From IMG/VR virus record IMGVR_UViG_3300037845_000036, positions 33,059 to 97,058 of that record: 64,000 nucleotides of DNA; one strand, given 5' to 3'. Each line of letters begins with the position of its first letter. Position 1 is the stretch's first letter. The stretch comes from a virus. The notes beneath the pieces are model-generated. The model ran no database searches, was not told where the DNA came from, and saw only the letters and a program-made list of their open reading frames with translations. Of the stretch, positions 3,975-38,787 are shown piece after piece. Both the position numbers and the translations under genes were made by a program.

Positions 3975-4721
3975 TCATTGCGGCACATAACTCGCGATGA
4001 TCGGTTGAGCGATCGGCACCAGCAGCGATTGCCCAAGCGCTGTAGGATGGATCAGATCGGTGTTGTAATACAGCGTGTTCGTCAGGTTTGCCGGGTTTCC
4101 CATAATCGGCTGCGAAGCGAAGTCGATCACCCCGTCAATCCCGTTCGCAATCTGCCAAGCCGCGTTTGTCAGCGTCGCATTGTAGGCGAGCCGGTTCGGC
4201 TCCGTCATTGTGCCGTCGCCGCGTGGCAGCAGCGTCGTCAGAAGGATCTTGTCAAACCCGGCCGTTCGGCGCAGTTGCGCGTTTGCGGCCACAGCAGCGG
4301 CGTAGAGCGCAGGCGTCGCGTAGCTGTCGATCGCGCCATCGTTTGAGCCGATTGCGCAGATATATTCATAGACACGACGCTGCCCGCCGGGGAAACTCTT
4401 GACCGCCGCAATCGGGTCAACCCACGTCAGCGCAATGCTCGTGACGGGGTTGCTGCCCGCAGCAAGCCGCGTTCCGCTGATCGCCATGTTGCGCATAAGG
4501 ATGTTACCACTCTGATAGGTGGCAAATCCCTGCATCGTCGGTTGGCCGCAGTCGCCTACCCCGACGACATTCAATAGTTGGAAAGGCCAATCGTTATTAG
4601 AAGAATAACATCCCGTAATGCTGTCGCCTGTGATGGCGAGGACGATAAGTCCGGCGGCGTGGGCAGCGACGGTCCCGAGCAGGCAGCAACTCAGAACTAC
4701 CGCGCCGAGTAACCGCTTCAT
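3975..4721 (-). CDS. SGNH/GDSL hydrolase with Sec signal peptide
   Basis: GDSIT, ISGT, IGSND and DLIHP blocks; signal MKRLLGAVVLSCCLLGTVAAHA. Confidence 0.85.
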   Translation of the reverse strand: MKRLLGAVVLSCCLLGTVAAHAAGLIVLAITGDSITGCYSSNNDWPFQLLNVVGVGDCGQPTMQGFATYQSGNILMRNMAISGTRLAAGSNPVTSIALTWVDPIAAVKSFPGGQRRVYEYICAIGSNDGAIDSYATPALYAAAVAANAQLRRTAGFDKILLTTLLPRGDGTMTEPNRLAYNATLTNAAWQIANGIDGVIDFASQPIMGNPANLTNTLYYNTDLIHPTALGQSLLVPIAQPIIASYVPQ

Positions 4722-5542
4722 CAGACGGCACCAAAGGCGTGGAGCAGCGTGTGGTTGCGATTATAAATTGCCGTAATCTGCGTGCCCGTCAGGGCGCCGC
4801 CAGCAAAATACAATGCTGGGAGGAAGTTTCCCGGATCAGACACGATGTCGGTGTTTGGCACGGCAGACGACTCAACAGTGTACGCGGTGATTAATGTCCC
4901 ATTGTGATAGAGCGAATAGCCGCTTGACGACGTGCGACTAATGACCCAAAAGCCCGAGCTATCGCCCGCATTTGCGGAACTCTGCTCCGGGGATGCGTTG
5001 TTCAGGAGCGTCGGCGTCGTGTCGTTGGAATACTGCGGCCAGATTTCTACAAGGGTATCGGTGGAGTCCTTGATGAGCGGGGTATTGAACTGTGCCGTCG
5101 TCAGATTCCATGAACCAATCGAGGCTGAGTTCTTCGTATAGTTGCCGCCCGCTGTCGTCGGGTTGAAGGCACTGTCCATGCTTGGCAGATTAGGACTCGC
5201 CCCCGTCCAGCCTTGATATGCCGTGAACGCTGGTACACCGCCGGCCTCAACTTCTTGTGGGTAGAAATTGCCCGAGATCAGATTGACGGCAGATGTGCCC
5301 TCGTCAGGCGCGGCACGAACAACAAGCACGTCGAGCGACGGCCAAACACCATCCGCAACCAACCCATCAATATATGCCGCGTAGAGTGCTTGGTTGGCTG
5401 GTGACGGCAGGGTGATGAGCCGGTTGAAGAACTGCGCGACTTGCGCTGATGGCGCTCCGCCTCCACTCCGTAGCAGTATGGCGCGAGCCGGCGTCGCTGC
5501 TAAAAGCCCCAATCCAGCAATTACGGCTCGGCGGTGGATCAA
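4721..5542 (-). CDS. ConA/LamG-like beta-sandwich tail-associated protein with Tat-type signal peptide
   Basis: MIHRRAVIAGLGLLAATPARA; YIDGLVADGVWPSLD; GFWVISRTSS..LYHNG; ALTGTQITAIY. Confidence 0.6.
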   Translation of the reverse strand: MIHRRAVIAGLGLLAATPARAILLRSGGGAPSAQVAQFFNRLITLPSPANQALYAAYIDGLVADGVWPSLDVLVVRAAPDEGTSAVNLISGNFYPQEVEAGGVPAFTAYQGWTGASPNLPSMDSAFNPTTAGGNYTKNSASIGSWNLTTAQFNTPLIKDSTDTLVEIWPQYSNDTTPTLLNNASPEQSSANAGDSSGFWVISRTSSSGYSLYHNGTLITAYTVESSAVPNTDIVSDPGNFLPALYFAGGALTGTQITAIYNRNHTLLHAFGAV

Positions 5543-7338
5543 TGCACTCGCGCCTTCAATTCCTCAATCTCGACTTGCTGCTGCTGAACAGCGTGCCAGA
5601 GAACAGGAACCAACCCCATGTAGTCGAGCCGAACCGGGTTGCCTGCTGTATCGTCTCGCACGAGCGATCCCAACGCCGACACCTTCGCAACGTCCTCCGC
5701 CAAGAACCCAAACTGCTCCCGCTCTCCCCGGTCGCCGTGCTCGCTGTCGTAGCGGAAGTTCTTTGCTGGGATTGCCATGACCTCGGAAAGTCCGGCACTC
5801 ACATCAGCGATACCGCGCTTAAAATGCATCGATGATGTCGTCAAACAGATCCCGCCAGTCCCCGTGCCGTAGTAGAATTGTCCGGTGCTGGTCACATCAC
5901 ACACCGTTGCATCGCTCTGTCCGGTATCGGCCGCAAGAGTCGCCACGAGCGATCCGGCAAGCGTCACGAGGTTGCTGCTAATGTTCCAGGTTAGAACCGG
6001 CGTGAATGATGCGCTTCCGGCACCTCCGCTAGTATTGTATCCCAACGCCGATGTCGAGTTACCCGTTGCCCCAATGCCCATATAATATGTACCTGTCCCA
6101 CCTATTTGAATTGCCATGCTATTGTTGGAAGTAGCTATGGATAATCCCTTGGTCCCGCTGCTTATTGATAAATTACCTCCAACACTAGCATTACCGCCAA
6201 AATTAACAGTCGGCGTAAAATACCACGAATTACTTTGTGTCTTGTTATAGTCCAGCTTGTCCGCGCCGCCCACGGCAACCTCAATCTCACCAGAGGCGGG
6301 AAGAAATATTCCCGTCGTCGCATCGGTCGAGAAGCTATACGTCGGCGCCCCAACCGTCCCACTCGGCGCCGCAAGCTGCGTCGGCAGCGCCGGTGCCCCA
6401 TCCGATCGCGTGAAATTTGAAGATGAGCCGGGCACTGCCGTCCATCCAATCGTTGCAGTCGGATTGGCTCCGCTTGCGCCCGCGCTGTTCGTCCCGAAGA
6501 AATCGAGATGCACGCCATCCGCGTTGGCAACGAAGGTGCCCTGTGCGCCGGGGACAAGCGGCGAGGAAACGCCCGTAAGGGTCAGGCCAGTGTTGTTGGC
6601 CAACGTCCAGTTAGCGGCGCCGTTGTTCGCCACCGCGAGCGACATTCCGGGAGCGAAGATCGTCGAAGACGCGGCCGGGAGGGTGAGGGTGTTGCTCGAT
6701 CCGGTGAGGACGAGCGCGCCAGCCATGTCGGTGGCGGCGACTTGGTAGCTGGATGACTTTGTGTTGTCAGTAAGAATGTTATTAACTGAAGCCGACCCCG
6801 CTGACCCGCCAACAAGAAAGCTATTCCCAAACGTTTCTGTCGTTGTATTCGTAACGCTATGCGTTCCGTCAGTCACAGTGAGGGGACTACTACCCCCACC
6901 GCTACCCCCGCCAGGCCCAGCACCCAACATGGCACCAGACCCGACAGAGATAGTAAGCGTTGTCGTACTAGAGGCGGTGATCGCGGCGATGTATGTGGCG
7001 GCATTGACGGCCAACAAAAAGCAGGTAGGAGATGCAGCGGTTCCCCCCGGTATTGCAAAGTTCGCGGTTGTCGCCGTTACTGTACTTCCACCGAATGCTA
7101 CATATGCAGCATTTGCACCAGTATTGCACACCCACGCTGATGGGGGTGCCTGATTAACAACTCCTACCCATCCCAATGAGACATTACTTGACGTGTTGGA
7201 GACTGACAGGGACGCGCTACTAACCTGTGTCCAACCGGCTGGGTAAGTCGTTACATTTTGATTAGGAGCGGCGCGCGGCGATGCTGATCCCCAGAACAAG
7301 GCTAGGGATACAGCCAAAAAAACGAACAGCCGAGACAT
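5539..7338 (-). CDS. Tail fibre/spike with C-terminal intramolecular chaperone (peptidase S74) and Sec signal peptide
   Basis: TSSMHFKRGI, KNFRY, FGFLAEDV, LDYMGLVPVLWHAVQQQQVEIEELK; N-terminal MSRLFVFLAVSLALFWGSASPRA. Confidence 0.85.
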   Translation of the reverse strand: MSRLFVFLAVSLALFWGSASPRAAPNQNVTTYPAGWTQVSSASLSVSNTSSNVSLGWVGVVNQAPPSAWVCNTGANAAYVAFGGSTVTATTANFAIPGGTAASPTCFLLAVNAATYIAAITASSTTTLTISVGSGAMLGAGPGGGSGGGSSPLTVTDGTHSVTNTTTETFGNSFLVGGSAGSASVNNILTDNTKSSSYQVAATDMAGALVLTGSSNTLTLPAASSTIFAPGMSLAVANNGAANWTLANNTGLTLTGVSSPLVPGAQGTFVANADGVHLDFFGTNSAGASGANPTATIGWTAVPGSSSNFTRSDGAPALPTQLAAPSGTVGAPTYSFSTDATTGIFLPASGEIEVAVGGADKLDYNKTQSNSWYFTPTVNFGGNASVGGNLSISSGTKGLSIATSNNSMAIQIGGTGTYYMGIGATGNSTSALGYNTSGGAGSASFTPVLTWNISSNLVTLAGSLVATLAADTGQSDATVCDVTSTGQFYYGTGTGGICLTTSSMHFKRGIADVSAGLSEVMAIPAKNFRYDSEHGDRGEREQFGFLAEDVAKVSALGSLVRDDTAGNPVRLDYMGLVPVLWHAVQQQQVEIEELKARVH

Positions 7339-22407: not shown

Positions 22408-22412
22408 TACAA

Positions 22413-23123
22413 CTACGATTGGGGCGGCGTAACAATTGGATTTGGTAGGCGGCTACCCCACCCCGCGCTCGCTACACGTTTCCGCGCTTCTTCAGTAAGG
22501 CTCGGGACCATCAACCGTGCATACTCCGCCTCCCATCCCAGCGCCGTTGCGGGGTCGTTCCCCTGAGTTGACCAATTCTTCTGCCACGCGCCACCCAGCC
22601 AACACATCTCGGCCGCGATAAACAGATCCGGTAATTGATTGGATATAAATGTCCCCGTCGTGTTTTGCGGACCCAGCGTCGCGGGGCGCTGCGTGCCAAA
22701 GCACGACATCCCGTACCCTTGATCTGGCGCGGGCGCCACCAATACGGTTGCCTGATCAAGCGGTGCCCAATACGCGGGTACACTCGGCTGCGACGGGGCA
22801 GTTTCACTTGGGAATAGATTATCAAGCGTCTCACGGCTCGCGGGCAGTAGCGGTGTCCCGAATACTCCGCTCACAATCGGTCGCAGCACTTCTAAGACAA
22901 TGAATGTCCCCACGTCAGTCGGCAATATAAAGGTGCGGCTATTTTGGGTTAATTTGCCCGTATCATCCGTTACGCGAGTTGACAGCAGATCGAGATCGCG
23001 CAAGATACGATCTTCTGCAGCCAAAATTGCGGACGGCAGAATATCATTGAAGTCTGGGTCTTGCTCATACGCCGAATCTCCACACAATTGGGCCAGGGCT
23101 TTTAGGTTCTCGGCGTAATTCAC
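22413..23123 (-). CDS. Head-tail adaptor (tubular A-like)
   Basis: MNYAENL..., AEDRILRDL, PAYWA, VAPAPDQGY, PDLFIAA. Confidence 0.7.
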   Translation of the reverse strand: MNYAENLKALAQLCGDSAYEQDPDFNDILPSAILAAEDRILRDLDLLSTRVTDDTGKLTQNSRTFILPTDVGTFIVLEVLRPIVSGVFGTPLLPASRETLDNLFPSETAPSQPSVPAYWAPLDQATVLVAPAPDQGYGMSCFGTQRPATLGPQNTTGTFISNQLPDLFIAAEMCWLGGAWQKNWSTQGNDPATALGWEAEYARLMVPSLTEEARKRVASAGWGSRLPNPIVTPPQS

Positions 23124-25283: not shown

Positions 25284-25552
25284 TTCTTAGGTACCGCGCA
25301 CCCTGGCGCGTCACCGCACCATCCTTTCCAGTATTTGGCTGTTTCCTCAGCTTGCGCACGTGCCGAATTGGCGCTCAACATATAAGCGCGCAACCTCTCC
25401 ATGACGTGCTCTTGCTCATTCATGTACGCCTGCCACTCAGCGCCAAGTTGCGCTTGAGGATCGGGGGCTTGCGGCGCCAATCCCTGCGCCATCACCAACG
25501 CGGGAACCGCAACCAATATCGGCAACAAAATCGAAAGCTTCATCCGCATCAT
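25280..25552 (-). CDS. Small secreted coiled-coil protein (possible fibre chaperone)
   Basis: Signal MKLSILLPILVAVPALVMA; C-terminal Cys pair WCGDAPGC. Confidence 0.55.
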   Translation of the reverse strand: MMRMKLSILLPILVAVPALVMAQGLAPQAPDPQAQLGAEWQAYMNEQEHVMERLRAYMLSANSARAQAEETAKYWKGWCGDAPGCAVPKK

Positions 25553-25561: not shown

Positions 25562-27088
25562 TTAGTTGCAAGAGGTAACAATGCCATTCACGATGACAAG
25601 ATTCGTAAAACCTATATGAAAAGTGCATGAAGCGCCAGTCGCCAACGCTAGCGTTCCACTAGCGGCGGGAAACGCAATGCTGTAATTCGTAGCGCTGGCA
25701 TTCAGGGTGGAAATTGCTGTATATCCCATCGAAGATCCGAAAAGATCAATAGGCATCGTTGCCGAAATAACACCGTTGAACGTCGCGGCACCATCTACCG
25801 TCAACGGCACATTCAAGATATGCACTAACCCTGTACCAAGCGCGGTGATATTAAGATTTTGATTCGTATCGCAAGTGCTTTGCGGTTGAATTGAAGCGGG
25901 GATCGATGTGGCACGCGCAAGAAACAGAATATAATTGCACGCGGTACCGATAGAGTTGAAATTTGCGACCTGATTACCGAGATAATCGTAAACTGCAAGC
26001 GCATTGCCGTTTGAGCCAGTCAGACGGCCGTTCACCAAATCAAAATTCAAGCCGCCATTGCTCAAAAATACCTGTGTGCGTCCAGCTTCGTCGAGAATTT
26101 CGTCTATATATCCATTTTTCCACGCCTGCCCTACTCCCCCGAGATTCCAGATGTCCCCAATCGCGGGAGTAAATGCCGGAAGTGACCCATTTATGGCTAC
26201 TATCTGAGGCGTCCCGTTAACATATACCGACCAATCGCAATCACCGTTCTCTGCGCCCGCAGTAGTCGTCGCCAAACCGCAATTCTGCACGACTCCATTG
26301 ATCTCTGTGGACGCAGCATTGGGCGATGTCCACGTAATCGTTCCCGCCGCACCGTTCATCACTGTATAATTCGTGGCGCTACCGTCAAAAAATGTGCCGG
26401 TCATCGCCAGCGTATTCGACCCGAGTGATGCGCCCCCCAGAGCCAACGTCGTAAAGGCCGGATTAGGACTAGGACCGACAAAGCCAACCTGCCAGCGACC
26501 GCCTCCGAGAGAAAGGGCGATAGTCGAGCTATTAGCCCGCGGTATGTAATTCGCCGAACCCGGCAACTGCATATACGTTGCGTTGTAAACAAGCGTGGGC
26601 GAACCAAGGAAAATCAAAAATTTCATCACGCCAGCGGGCGTAGACGCACCAAATGACGCAATCGATTGCGAGCCAGTTATCTGCACCGCTGCTTGAGGAA
26701 CAGACCCCAAATCCGTTGTCGCCGCACTCAATAAACTCGGAAGTGTCCCGCCCCCTACAGGTGGCTCCCAAATTCCCGTCGATGAATTGATGGACGCGAT
26801 TGGTACCCAGGAATTTGATGCGGGTATCCATATGCTAAGTGCATAAGTGACTCCGCTTGTATTGAGCCATAGCGTTCCGAGCGATGGATTGGCAGGCGCG
26901 GTCGGTCCCGCATTCATTGACTGGAGCGCATTGATGTCGTTCGCAGCGTCACCAAAGTTCTGACGGATCGGCGAAGCGTTGTACGGAACGCCTTGGACTG
27001 GCTGCGTTACGTCAATCGATGATGCGGCATAGGCGGGCACTACCCCGATGGTAATTAGCGCGGTAATAATGCAACGGGTAAGGAACAC
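25562..27088 (-). CDS. Tail fibre-like protein with Sec signal peptide, paralog of 23136..25283
   Basis: Shared N-domain ASSIxxTQPVQGVPYNAxPIRQNFGDAAxDINALQSMNAGPTAPANPSLGTLWLNT; IVNGIVTS end. Confidence 0.7.
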   Translation of the reverse strand: MFLTRCIITALITIGVVPAYAASSIDVTQPVQGVPYNASPIRQNFGDAANDINALQSMNAGPTAPANPSLGTLWLNTSGVTYALSIWIPASNSWVPIASINSSTGIWEPPVGGGTLPSLLSAATTDLGSVPQAAVQITGSQSIASFGASTPAGVMKFLIFLGSPTLVYNATYMQLPGSANYIPRANSSTIALSLGGGRWQVGFVGPSPNPAFTTLALGGASLGSNTLAMTGTFFDGSATNYTVMNGAAGTITWTSPNAASTEINGVVQNCGLATTTAGAENGDCDWSVYVNGTPQIVAINGSLPAFTPAIGDIWNLGGVGQAWKNGYIDEILDEAGRTQVFLSNGGLNFDLVNGRLTGSNGNALAVYDYLGNQVANFNSIGTACNYILFLARATSIPASIQPQSTCDTNQNLNITALGTGLVHILNVPLTVDGAATFNGVISATMPIDLFGSSMGYTAISTLNASATNYSIAFPAASGTLALATGASCTFHIGFTNLVIVNGIVTSCN

Positions 27089-27099: not shown

Positions 27100-28500
27100 C
27101 TAACAGGTATGAGTTGGGCTAGGCGGTGTGCCTACCTGCGACGGCATGAAGCCTGGCGGCCCCCAAAATCCGGGAGTACCCCAAGTCGCTGGCTGAACAG
27201 GGAACGAAACTGGCGACGCATAAACTGGGCTGTTACTCGGCAATGTGTATTCCCAACCGCAGGTAAAATTTGGATTACTGGTTTGCGGATTGCTGTCGCT
27301 GCCTGCGCTCCCCGAAGTCGAGAGCGTACCCGATGTACCATAGTTATAATAATTATTCGGGCCAATCGTACTTGTACCGCAAGGCCCAGTATTGCAGGGA
27401 TAGCCGCCTCCTGAACCACTATTGAGTTTTGCCAATATAAGCGAAGCTGTAAACGAGTTCCCGCTTGGCGTACCACTTTCATTTTGAATAGTCAGGATTT
27501 GCCCACTCGCACCCGTCGAGAGATCGCAGATATTCCCGGTCGAAACGTTATTGCTGCCGCCGTGATAGAAGACGCATGGATATGCGCTACCGCCACCCAC
27601 ACGCTCAACATTGCTCAGAATCGTGAAATTGCTGCTTAGATCGTCAATGTAGATGGCGTTCGCCCCGCCACCCGCCGATCCATCTTGCACGTAATTATAT
27701 TCAATAATTTCGCCACTCTGCGTCTGTGCGCTGTTGTTCTCCATATAGATGCCGCCACAGTCAGAGAATGCAGTCGCGTAGTTGTAGACATAATTGTAAG
27801 CAATCAGGAGATTGTTCGCCCCACCAGAGGTTTGCGGAAATGTCGCAATTCCCATACAGACTGTCGTATCAACACGATTATGAATGATCTGGCCGTTGGC
27901 CGCGTTCTGAGTAACAATCCCAGCGCTGCCCTGCACGCCAGTATCAGTGATATTTGTAACCCAGACATTCTTGATTAATGGCGCACTGCCTGTTGTTTCG
28001 ATCCCGTAGGCCCGATAATTCTCAAATACCAAACCGTTAACCGTTAGGTTATTGGCGGCAGAATAGATTCCACAACCCACCCCACTACTACCACTCGCTC
28101 CGCCATTTATGAACGCCGACAGATACCCATCGGGGGGGTAATAAGACCATATTTCGCCATTATCTGCCGTCGTCAGATCAAGAATCGAAGACAGACTTCC
28201 ATCACAATCCGTGCCAGTCCCGCTAGGCGCATAGGTACCTGCGCGGACATAGCAAGTTTTGATCGTGCTCGCGCGCATCGCTGTTTGACATTTTCCAAGG
28301 GTTTGGAACGGTGCGGCAAGTGTGCCAATATTGCTGTCACTGCCTAACGGAGACACAACAAAGCCGGGAGGCAACGGCGCAGGACGCGTGCGTGAATACA
28401 GCGACGATTTAGCGCGCGCCCCAACATCGATCGTGGCACCAGCAAAAACGGGTGCCGCAATGCCAAAGACAAAAAATAGACAGGCAACGATACGTTTCAT
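27100..28500 (-). CDS. Right-handed beta-helix (pectin-lyase-like) tailspike/depolymerase with Sec signal peptide
   Basis: VSPLGSDSNIGTLAAPFQTL, YVRAGTY, DCGGIY, AIYIDD; signal MKRIVACLFFVFGIAAPVFA. Confidence 0.75.
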   Translation of the reverse strand: MKRIVACLFFVFGIAAPVFAGATIDVGARAKSSLYSRTRPAPLPPGFVVSPLGSDSNIGTLAAPFQTLGKCQTAMRASTIKTCYVRAGTYAPSGTGTDCDGSLSSILDLTTADNGEIWSYYPPDGYLSAFINGGASGSSGVGCGIYSAANNLTVNGLVFENYRAYGIETTGSAPLIKNVWVTNITDTGVQGSAGIVTQNAANGQIIHNRVDTTVCMGIATFPQTSGGANNLLIAYNYVYNYATAFSDCGGIYMENNSAQTQSGEIIEYNYVQDGSAGGGANAIYIDDLSSNFTILSNVERVGGGSAYPCVFYHGGSNNVSTGNICDLSTGASGQILTIQNESGTPSGNSFTASLILAKLNSGSGGGYPCNTGPCGTSTIGPNNYYNYGTSGTLSTSGSAGSDSNPQTSNPNFTCGWEYTLPSNSPVYASPVSFPVQPATWGTPGFWGPPGFMPSQVGTPPSPTHTC

Positions 28501-28503: not shown

Positions 28504-29001
28504 TCAATAATCTGCGCAAGAGATCACGGCATTTACAACGGTTGACGACGTTAGGTTGGTCGCAAAGGTCATCTGCACTGTGTCGCCACTGATCAGCCGC
28601 AGAAATGGATTGCCATCACTATTGAGCGGCAACCCAACCCAGATTGTCGGCGCGAACAAATTCATTGGCGGGACACCATTGGCAAAGCCCGCGCTTGCCA
28701 CGGTCGTAACTGCTGTTCCACCATATTTGACAGTGCTATTCACGATCTGCACTGTAATGAGATGCGTCGCGCTCCCGTCATTGGTTGTCAGCCACAAAGC
28801 GCTACAATCGGAGCCATTTGACCCCGCCGCATAGAGAGTCTTATACGTGCCCGCGCTATCGGTACCCTGAAGAAATTGGACAACGCCCCGATTAGGCGTC
28901 TGCGGCGTAACCGGACTGTTTGGTGTGACCGCAGCGCTCGCCGGTAATGCCAGTAGCGACAAAAACGCAAGACATAACAAGAAACGACGGAACATTATCA
29001 A
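28504..29001 (-). CDS. Small beta-sandwich structural protein with Sec signal peptide
   Basis: [26 protein letters not shown]; TYKTLY; C-terminal ADY. Confidence 0.65.
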
Positions 29002-32000
29002 ATCCCTCCATAAACAGCGTGCGTGATCGTTGCTGTTGCAGCCTGTATCGCCTTAACTGCCAATGTATTAATTGTTGTAAAGGTTGCCGCACCCGGCACC
29101 GCCCCGCCAATAGTGCCTGGCGATGCAAAGGTAGCTCCGTTCAAGCTCGATGCATTTAGGTTCGCAACGTTTGTTGTACTGCTTACCGTAAATGGCGCTG
29201 TCCCCGTCGAAACAGTAGAGGTAAACGTTACGCAATTCAGGCTTGTTGTATTAGTTGGCAACACGCACGCTGGCGTACCACCAGAATTCAATAAGGTAAG
29301 ATCGTTTACGCTGCCCTTGCCTATAAGAGTGAGACCGCCCGTTGTAGATGTTAAGTAAATATCACCTTCGCCATTCGCAGCTAAGGTCGGGGCGCTCGCC
29401 TCGCCACCAATCCCGAGCGTGCCTGCCCCTTGCGTCGGCAAGGTCGTTCCCGTAACCGCCTCATAACCTGTTACGGTAACGCTAGTCGAAGCCGTCAACC
29501 CGGAAATCGTTGGGTTTGTCCCGCCTACAGGTGAACCCGATCCCGTAGCGTTTCCCCCCAGCAACGTAGCAACGCCTGTACCCAACCCACTCACGCCAGT
29601 AGAAATCGGCAGACCTGTCGCATTAGTTAACGTGCCAGATGCCGGCGTACCCAACGCAGGAGTCGTCAAGGTCAAATTCGTTGCCGCAAGCCCGCTCGGC
29701 AGCGTAGTTGAAATAGAAGGCACTCCAGAAGCCGATGTCACCAGCACACCGCTGTTCGCGGTAGCCAAATTCCCCAAGACACCCGCATTATCGTAAAGTA
29801 ATCCTTTTGTCGTTCCGCTTGAAATCGTAGTTGTGCCAACGGCGATGCTTGATGCAGCGGCACCAACTGCCGTGATAACGCCGCCAGATGCGGTAATCGT
29901 CACGTTATCGACTTCAACCACACCGAACGCACTCGCAGATCCTTTTGCGACCGTAATCGCACCAGCGGTGTCCGTAATGATCGTCCCATCAGGCTTCACA
30001 CAACCAATCTGTGATGAGGTTGCCGTCGTGCAAGCGATAGTCCCAGCGGTTATTGTAAGCGTTGAACCGTCGCCCTGCAGGATGCCCTCGGCCACACTCG
30101 TGCCAACGGGCAGCCCGACGTAATTCCCGGCTGTAACCGACCCTGAAACATTCAGAGATGTGCCCGTTGCCGCGCCTAGAACTGGCGTAACAAATGTCGG
30201 CGTTGTAGTGCCCGCTGGCCCACCTGACCCAGACGCAGTACCGCTCAATAATGTCGCGACCCCCGTGCCGAGACCGCTAACACCCGTTGAAATCGGCAAC
30301 CCCGTAACATTGGTCATTGTTCCCGACGCGGGGGTACCCAAAACGGGTGCGGTCATCGTCGGTGCCGTAAGGGTCTTATTTGTTAATGTCTGAGTAGCCG
30401 CCAGCGTAACGACCGTCCCCGTAGTGCTAGGGAACGTCATTGTTGTTCCATCGGTCCCAGCCAATGTCAATGAATTGCTGAATGTTAGCGTTTTCCCGGC
30501 ACTGCCCGTTAATGTATAGGTTCCTGTCGTAAATGCATTTCCGTTTATGCTTGTCGCTGTTGCCACTCCTAAAGATGGCGAAGTCAGCACCATATTACTC
30601 GCAGAAAGACCACTTGGAAGCGCAGTAGAAAACGATGGAACACCACTTCCGTTGGCGCTTAAAACACCATTATTCGTAGTAACGATATTGCCTAATGTCC
30701 CCGCATTGTCATAAAGAATCGCGTTACTAGTTCCACTAGTAACCGTCGTCGAACCAACCGCGATGCTCGTGAGTGCCGACCCTACGGCGGTAATCACACC
30801 CCCCGAAGCCGTAATGGTGGTCCCGTCCACCTCCACAACCCCAAACGTACTAGACGAGCCTACTGGCAATCCGACATAGGTTGACCCCGTAAGCGTCGTA
30901 AATGTGCCCGCAGCCGCGACCGTTTGCCCAATCGCTGGCGGAGAAGCGAATAGATTAAGAATGCCATTTCCGCTCACCGTTCCTGAAGCTGCCAGCGTCG
31001 TAAACGATCCGGTCGATGGCGTTGTGCTGCCCACAGCGGGCGGCGACGCGAACAATGCCGTGAACCCCGCACCACTAACCGTTGAAGATGCCGATAGAGT
31101 CGTAAATGCACCCGTCGATGCCGCAGAACTTCCAATCGGACCAGGCGAAGCAAAACGCGCTGTAAAGCCGCTACCACTCACGGTGCTCGACGCGGCAAGG
31201 GTTGTAAAAGCCCCGGTAGAGGGTGCCGTTCCGCCAATCGCAGGAGGCGAACCAAACAACGCAGTGAATCCCGCACCACTCACCGTTGATGATGCCGACA
31301 ATGTGGTAAAAGCACCCGTTGACGGTGTAATCGCCCCCACGGTCCCGTCAAACGACCCCGTAGCCGCCACTAGCGCGGGGCCGTTCGCCAAAACGACACT
31401 CCCGCTGCCCGTTGGCGTGACCTGTCCTAACAGCCCCCCCGTCGCTTGGCTGATAATATAACCATCCGTCCCGCCGCTAATCGTCGTCGTTCCCACCGCC
31501 AGCGCTGTTGCCGCCGCAGTCACCGTGCAGCTAGACCCCAGCGTGCATGTTTGCCCATTTACAGTCGTCGCTGGATTTTGCAGATCCGTGTTAGTGACCA
31601 GCCCAGGCGCAGAAAATGACGAACCCAGAGTCAATCCCGCAAAAGTCGGACTATTCGCGACACCCAACCCCAAATTGTTTAAGGCAGCCGGCAACACGGC
31701 ATTTGAAGCCGTGACATTCATCTGCCCGCCAGGGACAGCATTCGCCAGAACAAATGCTGTCGTCGCCAATTGTGTTGTATTGGTCCCCAAGGGCGCGGTC
31801 GGAGCGGTCGGGGTACCTAAAAATGCGGGGCTGGTCTGAAATGCAAATGCCCCAGTCCCCGTGGCTGTCGCGATGAGATGATATGTCACCCCACCGCGCA
31901 CGAGCGGCAACAAGTCGCCCGCACCCAATTGCCCCGCGTTAGGGGCGTTCATTATAAATTTAGCCCAATAGTCGCTCGTAACCTGCGCAGACCCCTCGCC

Positions 32001-32051
32001 CGCACAGCACGCCAACATCACAAAACTGAGAACTGCCCCCCAGCGCCGCAC
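28998..32051 (-). CDS. Long tail fibre with Sec signal peptide and Ser/Thr-rich repeats
   Basis: [56 protein letters not shown] fibre motifs; signal [22 protein letters not shown]. Confidence 0.8.
30890..31340 (-). repeat. About 105-bp (35-aa) coding repeats [30 protein letters not shown], 4-5 copies
   Basis: Visible in the translation of 28998..32051. Confidence 0.8.
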
Positions 32052-32167: not shown

Positions 32168-32650
32168 TCACGGCTCCGATTCTATGTCGCTCGGCAATGG
32201 TGGCAATGGCGGCGTCACATATACTGGAGTCGGCGGCGCTGGCATCGGCGATCCGTCCGCCAATAACGGATATCCCGCATCGTCCAACAGCACGTTCCCC
32301 TGATCGTCCAACAAATATATCGGCTCTAACGCAGGACCAATTGCCTGTACTGGCCACGGTAGGGGAGGGAGAGGGTTGGTGCCGTTGTTCGCTGCTTCAA
32401 AATTCTGCAACCTCGGGTTGGTGCGCGGAACCGGGTCTGGAGGCAGGATGATCGCCTTGTTTAGAAGGAAGGGCACGTCGAGGCACTTCGGGCATACCCT
32501 TAGATATGTGTTGAGAAGCCGCTGCCCGCGCCACTCAAATTGCCACCGTAGGTTGTCCAAATTATTCCAAAACCCGCAACGGTCGCATACGCCGAACGCG
32601 GAGGGCGACCTTCTACTTACCTTTGCGCGGCCGTAATACCGCCAACTCAT
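32168..32650 (-). CDS. Zn-finger virion-associated protein
   Basis: GVCDRCGF...VCPKCLD..PPDPVP; C-terminal YLLDDQGNVLLDDAGYPL. Confidence 0.7.
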   Translation of the reverse strand: MSWRYYGRAKVSRRSPSAFGVCDRCGFWNNLDNLRWQFEWRGQRLLNTYLRVCPKCLDVPFLLNKAIILPPDPVPRTNPRLQNFEAANNGTNPLPPLPWPVQAIGPALEPIYLLDDQGNVLLDDAGYPLLADGSPMPAPPTPVYVTPPLPPLPSDIESEP

Positions 32651-32654
32651 AACG

Positions 32655-33786: not shown

Positions 33787-34998
33787 TTATCTAAAATACG
33801 AAGTTAACCCAGGGCTGAGCATTAATGGAACGCGCTCAATGTCCTCTGTTAATGCATCTTGCAATAATTCTTTGTATTCGGTAGTTAAATCGGCGACGGT
33901 CACTCCAGAACTTGGCGGTTGAGGGAATTTTCGAGCTAAATTCTTAGCGAGACCTGCGGCGAATACTGCAAGCCACCTGTACGGGATATCAACCCCGACC
34001 CCACCCTCAACAACCGTGTCGGCCTGTTGGCTCATGATAAAAATGTGGAACACGTAGGGGCCGTAATCGTCGGGCGCGTTCCAAAAATTGACGGTGGGAG
34101 CGACAGTCCGTGAAAACCAGAACGTCGTCGGGAAGAACTGATAATTCGGCCCCTTGTCGGGCTGGCTCACATAATCAGTGCGCGATATTGGATATAGAAT
34201 CCGGTCATATGGATCGATACCGGGGAGTTGCGTCTGTGTTTGCGCTAGGCCGCCGTTCATCGTTGCGGTACCGCCCAATGAAGCGCCAGAGCCGATGCTC
34301 ACCGTGAAATTGTTCTGATCGATGACGCTAGCGACAGGCAGGTTGCCCGATAGCTGCAGCCCGCCAACGGTGACGGGCACGTTACAATAGAAATTTAGAC
34401 CAAGCGCGAGGCCATGGTTCGGCAGATTGATCGCAACGGTGTTGGCACCAGCCGTTGCCGTGAAGATCGGCAGCGCGACGGAGTTGGTGCCATCCATCGG
34501 CTGGGCGACGGTGATGTGATAATTGTTCTGGTCCACCACGTCGGTAACGAGATAGACGCCTTGGATGACTTGGCCAGACGCGGCGATGGCGGTCGCGAAG
34601 AACGTCATGCTGCCAGCGGCTAGGCTATGCAGCGGTTGGGTTATCTGCGCCAGCGTCGAGCCAGCGATACCTGTGATTATCGGCGTAAAGTTCTGCGGAT
34701 TACCCGCATAATACTGGCGGATAAAACCATCAAGAGGGGCAATAACATTAGATGGCAGCGTATAAGAGGAAACACCTGGAGTTAAGGGAATAAGTAATTC
34801 CGCAACCTTCCACAGAAGGGGAACCCCGACATTACTTAGCTCAGATTGGAGAAGGCCAGCGCTGATCCGCGCTTGAAAGAAATGGTCCGCCGTTAATGAC
34901 GCTGGACGTATCTGTATTCTTGCAAATGCATCAAGTATCAGTTCGCCAAGCGACGGATTGAAATTTGTCGTGCCTGACGTTGCGACAAGCGCGGTCAT
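33787..34998 (-). CDS. Head-closure/adaptor protein with inserted beta-sandwich domains
   Basis: TSGTTNF..LILDAF, ISRTDY...PTTFWF, DIPYRWL..AGLA..LA; inserts of the ITQPLHSL / INLPNHGL type. Confidence 0.7.
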   Translation of the reverse strand: MTALVATSGTTNFNPSLGELILDAFARIQIRPASLTADHFFQARISAGLLQSELSNVGVPLLWKVAELLIPLTPGVSSYTLPSNVIAPLDGFIRQYYAGNPQNFTPIITGIAGSTLAQITQPLHSLAAGSMTFFATAIAASGQVIQGVYLVTDVVDQNNYHITVAQPMDGTNSVALPIFTATAGANTVAINLPNHGLALGLNFYCNVPVTVGGLQLSGNLPVASVIDQNNFTVSIGSGASLGGTATMNGGLAQTQTQLPGIDPYDRILYPISRTDYVSQPDKGPNYQFFPTTFWFSRTVAPTVNFWNAPDDYGPYVFHIFIMSQQADTVVEGGVGVDIPYRWLAVFAAGLAKNLARKFPQPPSSGVTVADLTTEYKELLQDALTEDIERVPLMLSPGLTSYFR

Positions 34999-35665: not shown

Positions 35666-35668
35666 GGG

Positions 35669-36031
35669 TTAACCTTTCCCCAGACCCTTCACATTCTTCG
35701 CAAACTGCGCCATGTGGCGGACGTGCTCATTACCCGACCCAAGCGCCTTAGAAAGTTTGCCGGAAGGGATCGACTCGCCCTCTGGCACATGAAGCGCCCT
35801 ATGCAAGCCTCCTTTGTTCTCATCTACGCCAGTCTTCTGAATCCATTTATTGACACCGCCTCGCGCCCGTCGTCCCGCACGATCGTGTCGATACCGCCCC
35901 TTGCCATCCTCAGCGGCGACGTGCTTTTTCTTTTTGACCTTGCCGCCTTCAGCATAATGCGGGGCAGGGCCGCCCCCCGGATTCGGTGGTGCAGGTACCT
36001 CGAAATCGGGTTCGTGCCCACGAGTCCGCAT
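35669..36031 (-). CDS. Basic internal protein with xGG motifs
   Basis: YAEGGKV, RARGGV, KWIQ..GGLHRALHVPEGESIP. Confidence 0.65.
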   Translation of the reverse strand: MRTRGHEPDFEVPAPPNPGGGPAPHYAEGGKVKKKKHVAAEDGKGRYRHDRAGRRARGGVNKWIQKTGVDENKGGLHRALHVPEGESIPSGKLSKALGSGNEHVRHMAQFAKNVKGLGKG

Positions 36032-36428: not shown

Positions 36429-36914
36429 TCAGGTATCTGCCAACTCATCAGCGTCCGCGCTATGCGCAGTACCCTGTCGTGCGCGGGCCGCACTCGATAG
36501 CGGAGTCATATCCGCTCCCACACCGCCGCCGCGCTTGCGACCAGGGCGATCGAGGCGCCGATGTTTGGTCTTGTGACCCTCCATCTCGACATGCTTCATC
36601 GCCATGCCGCCTTCCTTGCGCTCTTTGACATGGCCGCCACGGGCGCGACGAACCTTGCCACCCTTCGCGCGCATCTTGCCTTCCGCCTCTTCTTCTTCTT
36701 CGTTCGGCTTGGCGGTATAGGACTCCATACCCTTGATTGAGTCTTCCTTCACTTCGCCTCCTTTCTCATAGTGATGATGATGAACCTCATCATGATCACC
36801 GTGATGGGCGACGTGGTGCTTGCCGTCGTGATGGCTGACAGACCCACCTTCCGCGCGCATAGCGTGGTGGCCCATGTGTGCCTCAGTCGGACGATAATGA
36901 TGGCCGCGTGCCAT
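36429..36914 (-). CDS. His/Arg-rich internal protein with six xGG motifs
   Basis: RAEGGSV, YEKGGEV, RAKGGKV, RARGGHV, RKEGGMA, RKRGGGV; AAGGAG RBS. Confidence 0.7.
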   Translation of the reverse strand: MARGHHYRPTEAHMGHHAMRAEGGSVSHHDGKHHVAHHGDHDEVHHHHYEKGGEVKEDSIKGMESYTAKPNEEEEEAEGKMRAKGGKVRRARGGHVKERKEGGMAMKHVEMEGHKTKHRRLDRPGRKRGGGVGADMTPLSSAARARQGTAHSADADELADT

Positions 36915-37032: not shown

Positions 37033-37257
37033 CTACTTGTTGCTCGCTTTCTCCGCCAACATCCCCGCTATCGAAGCTTGGATATCACGGAAATGGTAAT
37101 CAAAAGGAAATATTGCCACCGTTTTGTTCACTGCCTCAATAATCGCTTCACGCGAATGCTGATGTCCGTCCACCACACTAGCCAGCATAAACTCGGCTCG
37201 CATATCCGATATGGCAAACGCCATCCCGCACCCGAACCACGTTCCCCACCAGCACAC
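37033..37257 (-). CDS. Small TM-anchored helical protein overlapping the ligase end (possible split C-terminal part)
   Basis: VCWWGTWFGCGMAFAISDMRAE...AIFPFDYHFR; start uncertain. Confidence 0.45.
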   Translation of the reverse strand: MCWWGTWFGCGMAFAISDMRAEFMLASVVDGHQHSREAIIEAVNKTVAIFPFDYHFRDIQASIAGMLAEKASNK

Positions 37258-38197
37258 CAGCCAAAAAGGCTGTCGCCGGAAGATGTAGCGGGAACGCTGT
37301 AAGGTATTGCGCCCCAATACAAACCAGCGCTGCCTTGACGGGGATCGTGTCTGCCCAACGAGCGGCCAATCCGAAGAGGGCCACAAGGGGCAGCGCGCCG
37401 ATACCCATCTCATAGAGCGACTGAAGGAAGTCACTATGCGCCCGCTCCCAGCTAGGATACGTCGTCACGAAACTCCCTATCCCGTGCCCAAATATAGTAA
37501 TCCCCGCAGCGGTTGTATACCAGATATCAAAACGCGCCGCAGCCGATGCGCCCTTACTCGCCCATAGCGTCGCGAAGCCAGCCGCCATTACCAGCGCGCC
37601 AACACCCCAGAAGGCAATTTCACGCCGGCTCACCAGCAGTCCTAGACCAGCGCTCAGCAACGCCACACGAGAACCGCAAAACGCTAGCGGGATGCTCAGC
37701 GCAATTACGAGCGGCAAAGCTTCCACATAAAACGCATAGACAAACAGCACAGCCGCAATTTCCGCAAGGAAGTCACCATTGAAGAACAACCCCGCCGGTC
37801 CAGCAAACTCCGCGACCGGATGCCACCCCAAGAGTTGCCCGATCGCAAAGGCGCTCGATACCGCGACACCCCACCCCATCGCGCGCAGAACCGAATCAAG
37901 ATCCTCGATATTCGCGCCCAACAACACCGCGCCCGCGAACAGCACGAGCCAGCAAAAGTCATTCATTCCCGATAGCTGAACAGGCGTCCACAGCAGCGAC
38001 AGCGCGGCATACGCCACCATCGCCGCGACTAAAATCTGTGCTGTTCGGGAAAGTCTGCGCGGGTCCAACCAAGACGCCAGCGGCATACCCGCCGCCATCA
38101 GACTCCAGCGCGGAGCCGTCGCAGACGACAAGATGTTTGGCCAGAACGCTGTTGCTACACCAAATCCTAGGAGCGCCGGTCTGTTAAGACTGATCAC
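37178..38197 (-). CDS. O-antigen ligase (Wzy_C) / PglL-like oligosaccharyltransferase
   Basis: Polytopic; GLFFNGDFLA, GSRVALL, SAAARFDIW, FGHGIGSF, RAHSDFLQSLYEMG, FPLH; likely GTG start at 38197 (GTGA overlap). Confidence 0.85.
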   Translation of the reverse strand: MISLNRPALLGFGVATAFWPNILSSATAPRWSLMAAGMPLASWLDPRRLSRTAQILVAAMVAYAALSLLWTPVQLSGMNDFCWLVLFAGAVLLGANIEDLDSVLRAMGWGVAVSSAFAIGQLLGWHPVAEFAGPAGLFFNGDFLAEIAAVLFVYAFYVEALPLVIALSIPLAFCGSRVALLSAGLGLLVSRREIAFWGVGALVMAAGFATLWASKGASAAARFDIWYTTAAGITIFGHGIGSFVTTYPSWERAHSDFLQSLYEMGIGALPLVALFGLAARWADTIPVKAALVCIGAQYLTAFPLHLPATAFLAGVLVGNVVRVRDGVCHIGYASRVYAG

Positions 38198-38787
38198 TGT
38201 ACCGTCACGCCCGTCAGGTATTCGGTTGAAGCACCGCCCGCATTCGTAACCGCCGCCGAGAACGTCAGTGTCAGATACGAACCCGGCACCAAAGTCGCGC
38301 CAGTCAGCGTCACATTCTGTGTCGTCGGCGTCGTAATTGGGCAAACCACCTGCCCCGAAGCGATCAACGTCGAACCCTGCGTTCCCGCAGTCGTATTATT
38401 CAAATACGCCGCAGCCGTCATTGTATGAACAGAAGCCGTGCTACTGCTGTTGGCGTAATAGCACAAAATCCCAACCGTCAGATTGTTGCCGGGGTTCTCG
38501 TAAAATGGCACCACGTAATCGTAAGACGCGACATTCGATGTCGAACCCGAACTCGTTGCAGTCCCAATCAAATACGTGCCTGTGCCGGGCGTGTAGACCA
38601 AGCCAAAATTCGTGCTGCTCGCCGAACCCGTCATCTGAAGACCCGCAACGGTCTTCATGTTCGCCATGACGAGCGGGATAGCCGGCGGTGCCGCAACAGT
38701 CAGCGTGTCGGTATAAATCGCCGCCCACGCGAGCGGGGCAACCGCGACAGCAAACCAACCGGCAAGGGCGAGGCGTTTTAGCTTCAT
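38194..38787 (-). CDS. Secreted Ser/Thr-rich beta-sandwich protein
   Basis: Signal MKLKRLALAGWFAVAVAPLAWA; one Cys pair; coupled to the ligase gene. Confidence 0.7.
   Translation of the reverse strand: MKLKRLALAGWFAVAVAPLAWAAIYTDTLTVAAPPAIPLVMANMKTVAGLQMTGSASSTNFGLVYTPGTGTYLIGTATSSGSTSNVASYDYVVPFYENPGNNLTVGILCYYANSSSTASVHTMTAAAYLNNTTAGTQGSTLIASGQVVCPITTPTTQNVTLTGATLVPGSYLTLTFSAAVTNAGGASTEYLTGVTVQ

What the first reader, a model, noticed from the sequence alone, without database searches (positions are those of the whole stretch)
3975..38787. Candidate new system: periplasmic export, folding and glycosylation of phage appendage proteins
Seen: ten genes in the morphogenesis region start with classical signal peptides (basic N-region, hydrophobic core, AxA-like site): 3975, 4721 (twin-Arg), 5539, 23136, 25280, 25562, 27100, 28504, 28998 and 38194. 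Several have clear fibre or spike hallmarks (S74 chaperone, [16 protein letters not shown], beta-helix, GGTG repeats), and most are Ser/Thr-rich. Capsid, portal, adaptors and nozzle have no signal. A Wzy_C/PglL-like transferase (37178..38197) is translationally coupled to one of the secreted genes, and no cytoplasmic glycosyltransferase is visible. Established: tail fibres normally fold and attach in the cytoplasm; PglL-type enzymes transfer Und-PP glycans to Ser/Thr in the periplasm. Inference: appendages are exported, disulfide-bonded and O-glycosylated with host glycan, then dock on particles at or after inner-membrane rupture.
Basis: partly seen in the sequence, partly recalled or inferred. 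Interest (0 to 1): 0.95.

Follow-up and report, generated by a model that had tools for sequence, protein, structure and literature searches.

The report
Phage fibres carrying secretion signals
A 97-kb soil podovirus puts ordinary bacterial export signals on all ten of its fibre-, spike- and enzyme-like late proteins but not on its head, portal or tail core. These parts therefore almost certainly fold outside the cytoplasm where tailed phages are built, and I found no paper describing that route.

Summary
All ten named ORFs start with a basic N-region, a hydrophobic core and a small-x-small site; capsid, portal, adaptor, nozzle and ejection proteins do not. This is not chance: the late block holds 9-10 of 31 signal-like ORFs against 6 of 119 elsewhere. 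It is conserved: in one fibre family 52 of 57 homologues keep a hydrophobic leader, and three signal-less members start exactly at the predicted cleavage site. The syntenic primary fibre of related phages starts at Met1 with the same anchor motif and no signal.

The membrane protein is WaaL/Wzy_C-like by fold and by homologues that carry the Pfam domain, not by a direct Pfam hit.

The single-system reading is only partly supported. In 7 of 7 phage loci the WaaL-like gene sits next to genes for exported proteins. It is absent from three complete and one 93%-complete relatives that have signal-bearing fibres. Here it is a two-gene insertion between conserved head genes.

Export is well supported. 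Docking on virions after membrane rupture, disulfides and glycosylation are untested. An in-frame internal start in the primary fibre allows a cytoplasmic isoform.

The scan has noted the same phenomenon on other DNA. Closest in print are the Bdellovibrio MAT fibres.

The parts
28998..32051 (-). Primary tail fibre (1017 aa): 22-aa signal-like leader, short linker, canonical fibre anchor motif, PTAPT...ATTAFV-type motif, Ser/Thr-rich body with 6 Cys. Possible internal start at 31952 (codon 34).
   Evidence: The syntenic gene after the Zn-finger gene in relatives starts at Met1 with the same anchor and no signal, and overlaps the Zn-finger gene; here there is a 116-nt gap plus the leader. The G001 orthologue also has a signal followed by QVT and the anchor.
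28504..29001 (-). Exported 163-165 aa protein (RR in the n-region, 2 Cys), overlapping the stop of the fibre gene.
27100..28500 (-). Exported 466-aa protein with 12 Cys and parallel beta-helix-like repeats: a probable polysaccharide-degrading spike or enzyme.
   Evidence: Weak PHROG tail-spike hit (phrog_19784, E = 1.6e-4). The beta-helix reading is my own inspection of the sequence; Pfam gave nothing.
25562..27088 (-). Exported fibre paralogue (508 aa, 6 Cys) with the conserved N-domain that begins at the predicted cleavage site.
25280..25552 (-). Small exported protein (90 aa, 2 Cys) lying between the two fibre paralogues, downstream of 25562-27088. It is positionally analogous to the 74-aa exported ORF that follows the signal-bearing fibre in L012.
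23136..25283 (-). Exported fibre (715 aa): signal, helix with the PIRxNF motif, two beta domains, GGTG-repeat shaft and a variable C-terminus.
   Evidence: AF2 model with pLDDT above 90 for residues 60-207. Foldseek finds tailspike N-terminal regions in PDB (best E = 2e-4) and 196 viral models at E <= 1e-3.
5539..7338 (-). Exported fibre (599 aa, 4 Cys) with a C-terminal S74 intramolecular chaperone.
   Evidence: Pfam PF13884, E = 1.7e-7. The C-terminus is 34% identical to the signal-bearing 1035-aa fibre of L012.
4721..5542 (-). Exported 273-aa protein with a twin-Arg leader. It belongs to a family found next to WaaL-like genes in other phages.
   Evidence: homologues in L027 and L029, E about 1e-11.
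3975..4721 (-). Exported SGNH/GDSL-type esterase-like protein (248 aa, GDS block I at residue 32).
   Evidence: Pfam PF13472, E = 1.2e-4, below the curated cut-off.
38194..38787 (-). Exported Thr-rich beta-sandwich protein (197 aa, 2 Cys). Its stop overlaps the start of the WaaL-like gene (GTGA).
   Evidence: (atlas: viral clusters TM 0.72, CBM6-like TM about 0.5).
37178..38197 (-). WaaL/Wzy_C-like polytopic membrane protein (339 aa) with invariant Arg222, Trp226, Gly237, Gly239, His254, Glu263 and Gly265.
   Evidence: Homologues P0109-P0112 carry PF04932. Alignment A2. Atlas: 28 of 30 neighbours are Wzy_C, TM 0.8. AF2 pLDDT 85.6, and the best PDB match is WaaL 7TPG (E = 2e-5, TM 0.62). With 38194 it forms a two-gene insertion relative to relatives.
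32168..32650 (-). Signal-less Cys4 Zn-finger protein, translationally coupled to the fibre gene in relatives (context).
20440..23123 (-). Signal-less tail core: nozzle (P22 gp10-like, 655 aa) and tubular/adaptor protein (236 aa) (context).
   Evidence: phrog_3287, E = 1.8e-45.
33787..34998 (-). Signal-less head-tail adaptor (403 aa) (context).

Best explanation
This temperate-looking 97-kb podovirus sends its whole set of fibre/spike/enzyme-type late proteins across the inner membrane. The route is Sec for most, with a twin-Arg leader on one or two.

SHOWN OR NEARLY SHOWN FROM SEQUENCE. The leaders are coded. They are conserved in kind but not in sequence. They are followed by small-x-small sites, and they sit in front of fibre N-termini that begin at Met1 in other phages.

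INFERRED.
1. Signal peptidase removes the leader.
2. The proteins trimerise and form disulfides in the periplasm, and the S74 domain cuts itself off there, as it does in the exported Bdellovibrio MAT fibres.
3. The proteins are still the phage's receptor-binding apparatus. They are added to fibre-less particles as the last assembly step, once holin lesions merge cytoplasm and periplasm.

THE WAAL-LIKE GENE. Together with its coupled exported beta-sandwich partner it is a separate, mobile two-gene add-on. It most likely transfers an undecaprenyl-diphosphate-linked host glycan to that partner or to other exported phage proteins, as in pilA-tfpO. It is not part of the export route itself.

MY ODDS. 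Export real: about 0.85. Exported proteins are the virion's fibres: about 0.35-0.4. The enzyme glycosylates phage proteins: about 0.2.
For: - Enrichment and placement of signals.
- Tight operon packing: start/stop overlaps with neighbouring genes, and no excess of promoters or terminators.
- In the PIRxNF fibre family, 43 of 57 members have a classical leader and 9 have a longer N-extension plus a hydrophobic segment. Three members start exactly at the predicted mature N-terminus.
- The relatives G003 and G004 (capsid 89% identical), both hit, keep a signal on this fibre.
- The syntenic primary fibre of 7 relatives starts at Met1 with the same anchor and no signal.
- The G001 orthologue keeps signal, QVT and anchor although the leader sequence differs.
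- No signal-less fibre-like ORF was found in the genome.
- The fibre N-domain fold matches phage tailspike N-regions.
- Mature exported proteins have 0.91 Cys per 100 aa against 0.33 in the other late proteins, with even counts in 9 of 10. They also have 6% charged residues against 17%.
- S74 auto-processing after Sec export has a precedent in MAT fibres (PMC10769870).
- From my own knowledge: P22 heads accept tailspikes in vitro as the last assembly step, so late docking is chemically feasible.
- WaaL-like assignment. Exported neighbours in 7 of 7 loci; enrichment computed before the corrections for L025 and 38194 gave OR about 7, p = 2e-4.
Against: - There is no experiment and no trained signal predictor.
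- No known tailed phage adds fibres from the periplasm, and dilution at lysis would cost efficiency.
- The conserved N-domain of the PIRxNF family occurs in both podovirus and myovirus tail modules, which is odd for a tail-specific docking domain.
- In L012 and L087, exported fibre-like proteins coexist with a normal signal-less fibre.
- The primary fibre has an in-frame ATG (window codon 34) or GTG (G001 codon 30) just before the anchor, so a cytoplasmic isoform is possible.
- The genome has an integrase, so expression in lysogens cannot be excluded.
- The WaaL-like gene is missing from relatives that carry signal-bearing fibres.
Confidence: 0.35

Rival explanations
1. The proteins are exported but are not virion parts. 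They are fibre-derived accessory proteins that act on the infected or lysogenic cell envelope. Possible roles are polysaccharide depolymerase and esterase activity that frees progeny or destroys receptors, receptor masking for superinfection exclusion, or MAT-like surface adhesins. The particle would use some other, unrecognised receptor-binding protein.
For: - Exported-protein blocks occur as variable cargo at a hot-spot upstream of the adaptor gene in relatives. In L087, and in the P2-like L012, they sit beside a normal signal-less fibre.
- The set includes enzyme-like members: an SGNH esterase and a beta-helix protein.
- The MAT precedent for the architecture signal + conserved N-domain + variable tip with or without S74 is a cell-surface adhesin.
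- The same N-domain occurs in podovirus and myovirus contexts.
- An integrase is present.
- The 100-aa module of the family recurs in giant bacterial proteins.
Against: - The genes replace both fibre modules of the relative MW202675.1 at syntenic positions.
- The primary fibre keeps the particle-anchor motif.
- No signal-less fibre candidate is left in the genome.
- The genes overlap structural genes and show no promoter or terminator of their own.
Confidence: 0.3
2. Two isoforms are made. Internal initiation just before the anchor (ATG codon 34 here, GTG codon 30 in G001) yields a cytoplasmic primary fibre that assembles in the normal way. The long form, and the other signal-bearing proteins, are exported for a separate job.
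For: - In-frame start codons lie exactly where relatives have Met1.
- Signal-less members of the PIRxNF family exist, so the mature domain can presumably work without export.
Against: - There is no recognisable ribosome-binding site before codon 34, though such sites are weak throughout this genome.
- The PIRxNF paralogues and the S74 fibre have no internal start near the cleavage site.
- The reading does not explain why every fibre-like protein carries a leader.
Confidence: 0.15
3. The hydrophobic N-termini are not cleaved export signals. They act as temporary inner-membrane tethers or assembly handles, like a signal-anchor, and the body of the protein stays on or returns to the cytoplasmic side.
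For: Nine family members carry a cytoplasmic-looking extension of about 65 aa before the hydrophobic segment, which looks like a type II anchor.
Against: - The -3/-1 small-residue rule is kept in nearly all homologues.
- Homology begins exactly after that site.
- Signal-less members start there.
- A positive n-region predicts that the body is translocated.
- Cysteine pattern.
Confidence: 0.08
4. The pattern is an artefact of start-codon choice or chance hydrophobic N-termini.
For: The start of 28998 is ambiguous, and 38194 and 28504 have two candidate starts.
Against: - Most leaders begin at starts that overlap or abut the upstream stop codon.
- Enrichment p = 5e-4.
- The leaders are conserved across dozens of homologues and several phage lineages.
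Confidence: 0.02

Closest known systems
Bdellovibrio bacteriovorus mosaic adhesive trimer (MAT) fibres (Caulton et al. 2024, PMC10769870)
   Same: Signal peptide, then a conserved N-terminal beta-rich domain, then a phage-like trimeric fibre with swappable tips. Some members have a C-terminal S74 auto-cleaving chaperone, and the tips contain disulfides. This shows that phage-type fibres can be Sec-exported and can mature outside the cytoplasm.
   Different: MAT genes are chromosomal genes of a predatory bacterium and the fibres are displayed on its own surface. Here the genes lie inside the tail operon of a tailed phage, at the positions of its own fibres. I did not test homology of the N-domains.
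Signal-less tail fibres of related podoviruses (MW202675.1; IMG/VR relatives L074, L087, L094, L104, L109, L111)
   Same: Same position after the Zn-finger gene, same N-terminal anchor motif and the same kind of repeat-rich body.
   Different: They start at Met1 and overlap the upstream gene. The window's fibre has a 116-nt gap and a 22-aa leader plus linker in front of the anchor.
pilA-tfpO (PilO), comP-pglS and PglL protein O-oligosaccharyltransferase systems (from my own knowledge)
   Same: A Wzy_C-family membrane enzyme is encoded directly after the gene of an exported protein, which is its substrate.
   Different: No pilin is present. There is no PglL_A domain and no experimental link. 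The partner here is a beta-sandwich protein. The partner families differ between phage loci.
WaaL O-antigen ligase (Cupriavidus metallidurans, PDB 7TPG)
   Same: Best structural match of the AF2 model (E = 2e-5, TM 0.62). The Arg and His positions in the loop motif are conserved.
   Different: 15% identity; 339 aa against 403 aa; encoded by a phage in a head-gene operon. Acceptor unknown.
Serotype-converting phage O-antigen polymerases such as the Wzy of Pseudomonas phage D3 (from my own knowledge)
   Same: A phage-borne Wzy_C-family enzyme that comes as an insertion relative to close relatives.
   Different: Those genes sit in lysogenic-conversion loci. This one is co-oriented with head genes, has no promoter signal of its own, and is always flanked by exported-protein genes.
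Signal-peptide genes of Porphyromonas gingivalis phages (Matrishin et al. 2023, PMC10367356)
   Same: Phage genes with Sec signals are reported and discussed as a class.
   Different: That paper reports signals on capsid, spanin and unknown genes, read as envelope modifiers. It does not mention tail fibres or a periplasmic assembly route.

Membership tests
Sec-type (SPase I) signal peptide | Positive n-region, uncharged hydrophobic core of 10-15 residues, small residues at -3 and -1 | tested here: met
   Rule-based scan. All ten ORFs pass (38194 from its ATG at 38787).
Sec-type (SPase I) signal peptide | The leader varies in sequence but is kept in kind among homologues, and homology starts at the cleavage site | tested here: met
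   52 of 57 family members have a hydrophobic leader, and three signal-less members start at the predicted +1 position.
Sec-type (SPase I) signal peptide | Experimental export and cleavage, or a trained predictor score | not testable with these tools
   No SignalP or DeepTMHMM was available, and there is no experiment.
Tat signal | S/T-R-R-x-F-L-K-type motif with a mildly hydrophobic core | tested here: inconclusive
   RR is present in 4721, 28504 and 28998, but Pfam TAT_signal gives no hit for the window proteins. G001 gene 3110-4174 has a weak hit (E = 0.002, below the cut-off).
Peptidase_S74 intramolecular chaperone | Pfam PF13884 above the gathering score at the C-terminus of a fibre | tested here: met
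   5539-7338, residues 502-553: 31.8 bits against a cut-off of 22.
Wzy_C / O-antigen ligase superfamily | Direct Pfam PF04932 match | tested here: not met
   No hit even at E <= 1. A PF04932 scan of the related phage records also found nothing.
Wzy_C / O-antigen ligase superfamily | Homology to proteins that carry PF04932; polytopic GT-C-like fold; conserved Arg and His in the periplasmic loop motif | tested here: met
   P0109-P0112 (E = 1e-24 to 1e-31) carry PF04932. Arg222 and His254 are invariant. Atlas: 28 of 30 neighbours. The AF2 model matches WaaL 7TPG best.
PglL/TfpO protein O-oligosaccharyltransferase | Demonstrated protein acceptor, or PglL_A-type extra domain | not testable with these tools
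   No extra domain is seen in the 339-aa protein. Only the gene-pair arrangement resembles pilA-tfpO. Ligase, polymerase and O-oligosaccharyltransferase cannot be told apart from sequence.
Podovirus tail fibre (particle-bound) | N-terminal anchor motif at the position syntenic with the fibres of relatives | tested here: met
   28998-32051 compared with the fibres after the Zn-finger gene in 7 relatives.
Podovirus tail fibre (particle-bound) | Presence in purified virions | not testable with these tools
   Uncultured phage with unknown host.
MAT-like exported fibre | Signal + conserved N-domain + trimeric fibre + variable tip, with or without S74 | tested here: met
   Architecture: compared with PMC10769870. 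This is a likeness of design; homology to MAT was not tested.
Moron / lysogenic-conversion cassette | Insertion relative to close relatives, with its own promoter and terminator | tested here: inconclusive
   The pair 38194 + 37178 is an insertion between genes that are adjacent in relatives. There is no promoter or terminator excess, and the pair is co-oriented with the head genes. The host's promoter type is unknown.
SGNH/GDSL hydrolase | Pfam PF13472 above the cut-off; GDS block I | tested here: inconclusive
   23.1 bits against a cut-off of 32.9. GDS motif present at residue 32.

The most novel reading that the evidence does not exclude
Tailed phages of soil bacteria have a second assembly compartment. 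The complete receptor-binding apparatus (primary fibre, side fibres, spikes, esterase) is Sec-exported, disulfide-bonded and, in phages that carry the WaaL-like cassette, decorated with host lipid-linked glycan in the periplasm. It joins cytoplasmic fibre-less particles only when the holin breaches the inner membrane.
Probability: 0.15. Interest if true: 0.95.

Novelty: new variant of a known kind. Interest (0 to 1): 0.75.

Why it matters
Textbook assembly of tailed phages takes place wholly in the cytoplasm. If the host-recognition parts of a widespread group of soil phages mature in the periplasm, several things follow.
- It would explain how fibres can carry disulfides or glycans.
- It would add a new last step to virion assembly.
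- It would change how receptor-binding proteins are predicted and expressed: leaders would need trimming, and oxidising expression hosts would be needed.
- It would give host Sec, signal peptidase and Dsb a role in phage infectivity.

The ordinary outcome would also be new. Fibre-derived exported enzymes or adhesins carried as cargo in structural operons, often with a WaaL-like enzyme, would be an undescribed class of phage envelope-modifying functions.

The fibre family is large. The profile search found 631 representatives of 50%-identity clusters at E <= 1e-30 and 7,008 at E <= 1e-10, although many of these hits are to its repeat modules.

Tried and rejected
SEARCHES THAT GAVE LITTLE
- Direct Pfam and PDB sequence searches of the membrane protein gave nothing. 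It was resolved through homologues, the atlas and the fold.
- PDB sequence searches of 27100, 28998 and the fibre profile were uninformative.
- Pfam on ten exported proteins of G001, L028 and L029 gave almost nothing.
- Near-identity DNA search of GenBank phages: no match.
- Single-protein scans of IMG/VR with the enzyme and the nozzle found few or no loci. Alignment queries worked better.
- Genome-contig scan with the fibre profile: no prophage relative in 185,579 species genomes, so no host could be named.
- The metagenome scan added only three loci.
The contexts of the signal-less family members (P0004, P0018, P0024) and of the N-extended variants therefore could not be read.
- The A2 alignment was too divergent for a locus scan.

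LITERATURE
- Three full-text searches for signal-bearing tail fibres found no paper on the subject.

IDEAS TESTED AND DROPPED
- The roughly 65-aa N-extension of some homologues has no counterpart in this genome.
- The region-restricted homologue search for the N-terminus of 28998 was dominated by shared fibre repeats. It served only to show that the anchor normally starts at Met1.
- Moron with its own promoter and terminator: not supported.
- Phage-encoded GT2 or GT4 glycosyltransferases: none.
- A single conserved substrate family next to the WaaL-like gene: rejected, because the neighbours belong to several unrelated families.

Full report
WHAT THE WINDOW IS. The window is bases 33059-97058 of a single 97,058-bp virus record, 92% complete by CheckV. 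All late genes lie on the minus strand. The record is a podovirus:
- a terminase carrying an intein;
- a portal, and a capsid 86% identical to that of a complete 105-kb IMG/VR phage, G001;
- a head-tail adaptor, a tubular protein and a P22 gp10-like nozzle (phrog_3287, E = 1.8e-45), plus two giant ejection proteins.
The part of the genome outside the window encodes a tyrosine integrase, a ParB-like protein, methylases and an IS1595 transposase. The phage may therefore be temperate. No host could be named, because no prophage relative was found in 185,579 species genomes.

THE OBSERVATION.
- A rule-based scan flags 9 of 31 ORFs in the late block against 6 of 119 elsewhere (p = 5e-4). The tenth ORF passes from its ATG.
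- The nearest GenBank relative, MW202675.1, has none in its fibre genes.
- Most leaders begin at start codons that overlap or abut the stop of the gene before them. They are therefore coded and are not start-choice artefacts.
- There is no excess of promoter-like or terminator-like sites in 22-40 kb.
- The mature parts differ from the other late proteins: 0.91 against 0.33 Cys per 100 residues, even Cys counts in 9 of 10, 6% against 17% charged residues, and 23% against 13.5% Ser+Thr.

THE LEADERS ARE UNDER SELECTION. The two paralogous fibres, 23136 and 25562, belong to a large family (profile search: 631 cluster representatives at E <= 1e-30). Of 57 members that carry the N-terminal PIRxNF motif:
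- 43 have a classical leader directly before it;
- 9 have a longer N-extension followed by a hydrophobic segment;
- 2 look like truncated gene calls;
- 3 start exactly at the predicted mature residue with no leader.
The leaders differ in sequence while the residues after the cut site are conserved, as expected of real signal peptides. The fibre hits in G003 and G004 (capsid 89% identical) begin at query residue 3, so they include the leader region; translating those loci shows the leader on this fibre. G001, though only 47-60% identical in tail and portal genes, has about a dozen signal-bearing ORFs. These include an orthologue of the primary fibre and a twin-Arg protein.

THESE ARE FIBRE GENES BY POSITION AND BY FOLD.
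- In seven phages of the same capsid lineage, the gene after the Cys4 Zn-finger gene encodes a fibre that starts at Met1 with the anchor motif and overlaps the Zn-finger gene (gap -4 to +3 nt). The window's 28998-32051 sits at the same place with the same anchor. It is preceded by a 116-nt gap, a 22-aa leader and a 12-aa linker.
- The second fibre module, after the ejection proteins, is likewise signal-less in MW202675.1.
- 5539-7338 has an S74 chaperone. Its C-terminus matches that of a 1035-aa signal-bearing fibre of a P2-like phage.
- An AF2 model of the N-domain of 23136 (pLDDT above 90 for residues 60-207) matches tailspike N-terminal regions in PDB and 196 viral models.
- 27100-28500 reads as a parallel beta-helix with 12 Cys. 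3975-4721 reads as an SGNH esterase.
- I found no fibre-like ORF without a leader in this genome.

THE SAME DESIGN OCCURS IN OTHER PHAGE TYPES. A 52-kb myovirus has a signal-bearing family member between its tape-measure and baseplate genes. A P2-like phage has one, with a small exported partner, after its normal fibre.

THE MEMBRANE ENZYME. 37178-38197 gives no direct Pfam hit. The other evidence agrees on what it is:
- homologues at E = 1e-24 to 1e-31 carry PF04932;
- Arg222, Trp226, His254 and Glu263 are invariant;
- 28 of 30 atlas neighbours are Wzy_C clusters;
- a confident AF2 model (pLDDT 85.6) matches the WaaL ligase 7TPG best (E = 2e-5, TM 0.62), ahead of the SEDS proteins.
It is a WaaL/Wzy_C-family enzyme. 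Ligase, polymerase and protein O-oligosaccharyltransferase cannot be separated from sequence. Its start overlaps the stop of 38194 (GTGA). 38194 is an exported beta-sandwich protein whose nearest structural neighbours are viral clusters.

THE CO-OCCURRENCE TEST CUTS BOTH WAYS.
- In six IMG/VR loci with a homologous enzyme, small or fibre-like ORFs with signals lie directly beside it. In L025 this became clear only after a spurious reverse ORF was removed. In L027-L029 the order is terminase, portal, enzyme, two to four exported proteins, scaffold, capsid. With the window this makes 7 of 7. The enrichment computed before those corrections gave an odds ratio of about 7 (p = 2e-4). The loci are not all independent.
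- The neighbours belong to several unrelated families. One of them includes the window's 4721-5542.
- Conversely, G001, G002, G003 and G004 have signal-bearing fibres and no such enzyme.
- None of 28 capsid-lineage loci with at least 4 kb downstream of the capsid gene has the enzyme. The homologues of 38798 and 36429 are adjacent there, so 38194 + 37178 is a two-gene insertion.
- No GT2 or GT4 enzyme is present in the genome.

WHAT WEAKENS THE BOLD READING.
- Relatives carry variable blocks of three exported ORFs just upstream of the adaptor gene. In L087 such a block coexists with a normal signal-less primary fibre. This looks like accessory cargo.
- The primary fibre has an in-frame ATG at codon 34 (GTG at codon 30 in G001), just where relatives have Met1. 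A cytoplasmic isoform is therefore possible.
- The conserved N-domain is shared between podovirus and myovirus contexts.

LITERATURE.
- Three full-text searches found no description of Sec-signal tail fibres.
- The nearest design in print is the Bdellovibrio MAT family: signal peptide, conserved N-domain, trimeric fibre, S74 or other tips, disulfides, and surface display (PMC10769870).
- Matrishin et al. 2023 report signal peptides on capsid, spanin and unknown genes of Porphyromonas phages (PMC10367356).
- Earlier notes of this scan describe the same phenomenon on other genomes. They gave me these two papers, which I then read myself.

VERDICT. Export is the well-supported part, at about 0.85. 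Whether the exported proteins are the virion's own fibres joined after membrane rupture (0.35), accessory envelope-acting proteins (0.3) or one of two isoforms (0.15) cannot be settled without experiments. Glycosylation of phage proteins by the WaaL-like enzyme is a reasonable guess, at about 0.2, for a mobile add-on. It is not a component of the export route.

Noticed in passing
window 50231-53125 (-): The terminase large subunit (964 aa) is interrupted by an intein with a LAGLIDADG endonuclease (Pfam LAGLIDADG_3 E = 3.8e-16, Terminase_6C E = 5.6e-13). The G001 orthologue is 630 aa and lacks it.
   Followed up: partly
window 32655-33191, 39757-40143, 40034-40666 (-): Homing-endonuclease-like ORFs are inserted within the late operon, between the adaptor and fibre genes and just after the capsid gene. 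Homologues are scattered in relatives.
   Followed up: no
window 36429-36914 and 35669-36031 (-): Small His/Lys/Gly-rich proteins follow the head genes. They are conserved in relatives, and in L025 they sit right after the WaaL-like gene. Function unknown.
   Followed up: partly
proteins P0005, P0007, P0008, P0009, P0011, P0012, P0014, P0016, P0022: Nine members of the fibre family carry a conserved, charged N-terminal extension of about 65 aa before the hydrophobic segment. This gives a type II anchor-like topology with a cleavage-type site still following it. This genome has no counterpart.
   Followed up: partly
proteins P0004, P0018, P0024: Signal-less members of the same fibre family start exactly at the predicted mature N-terminus.
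   Followed up: no
L087 13194-15113; L046 3311-5112; G001 (L043 16342-19324): Just upstream of the adaptor gene, relatives have a hot-spot that holds three unrelated signal-bearing ORFs.
   Followed up: partly
L027 8716-14213; L028 11273-16044; L029 11255-16827: A different phage group places a WaaL-like gene and two to four exported proteins between the portal and scaffold genes. Two of the three (L027, L029) include a 752-780-aa protein with a fibre-type N-terminal motif; L028 has an 834-aa signal-bearing ORF with a different N-terminus.
   Followed up: partly
window 250-3415 and G000 32312-32812: Lysis region: phage lysozyme (1729-2226, Pfam E = 2.6e-37), small double-TM ORFs (930-1085, 1280-1732), a TM-plus-coiled-coil protein (2858-3415) that could be an i-spanin, and a lipobox lipoprotein just left of the window.
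   Followed up: partly
G000 12160-13083 (outside the window): An IS1595-family transposase lies inside the phage genome, next to a ClpB-like double AAA protein at 14962-16980.
   Followed up: no
proteins P0221, P0172, P0203 and others: The roughly 100-aa module of the fibre family (profile positions 120-220) and its GGTG-repeat region recur up to 37 times in giant proteins of 3,800-5,556 aa. This suggests a shared adhesin building block.
   Followed up: no
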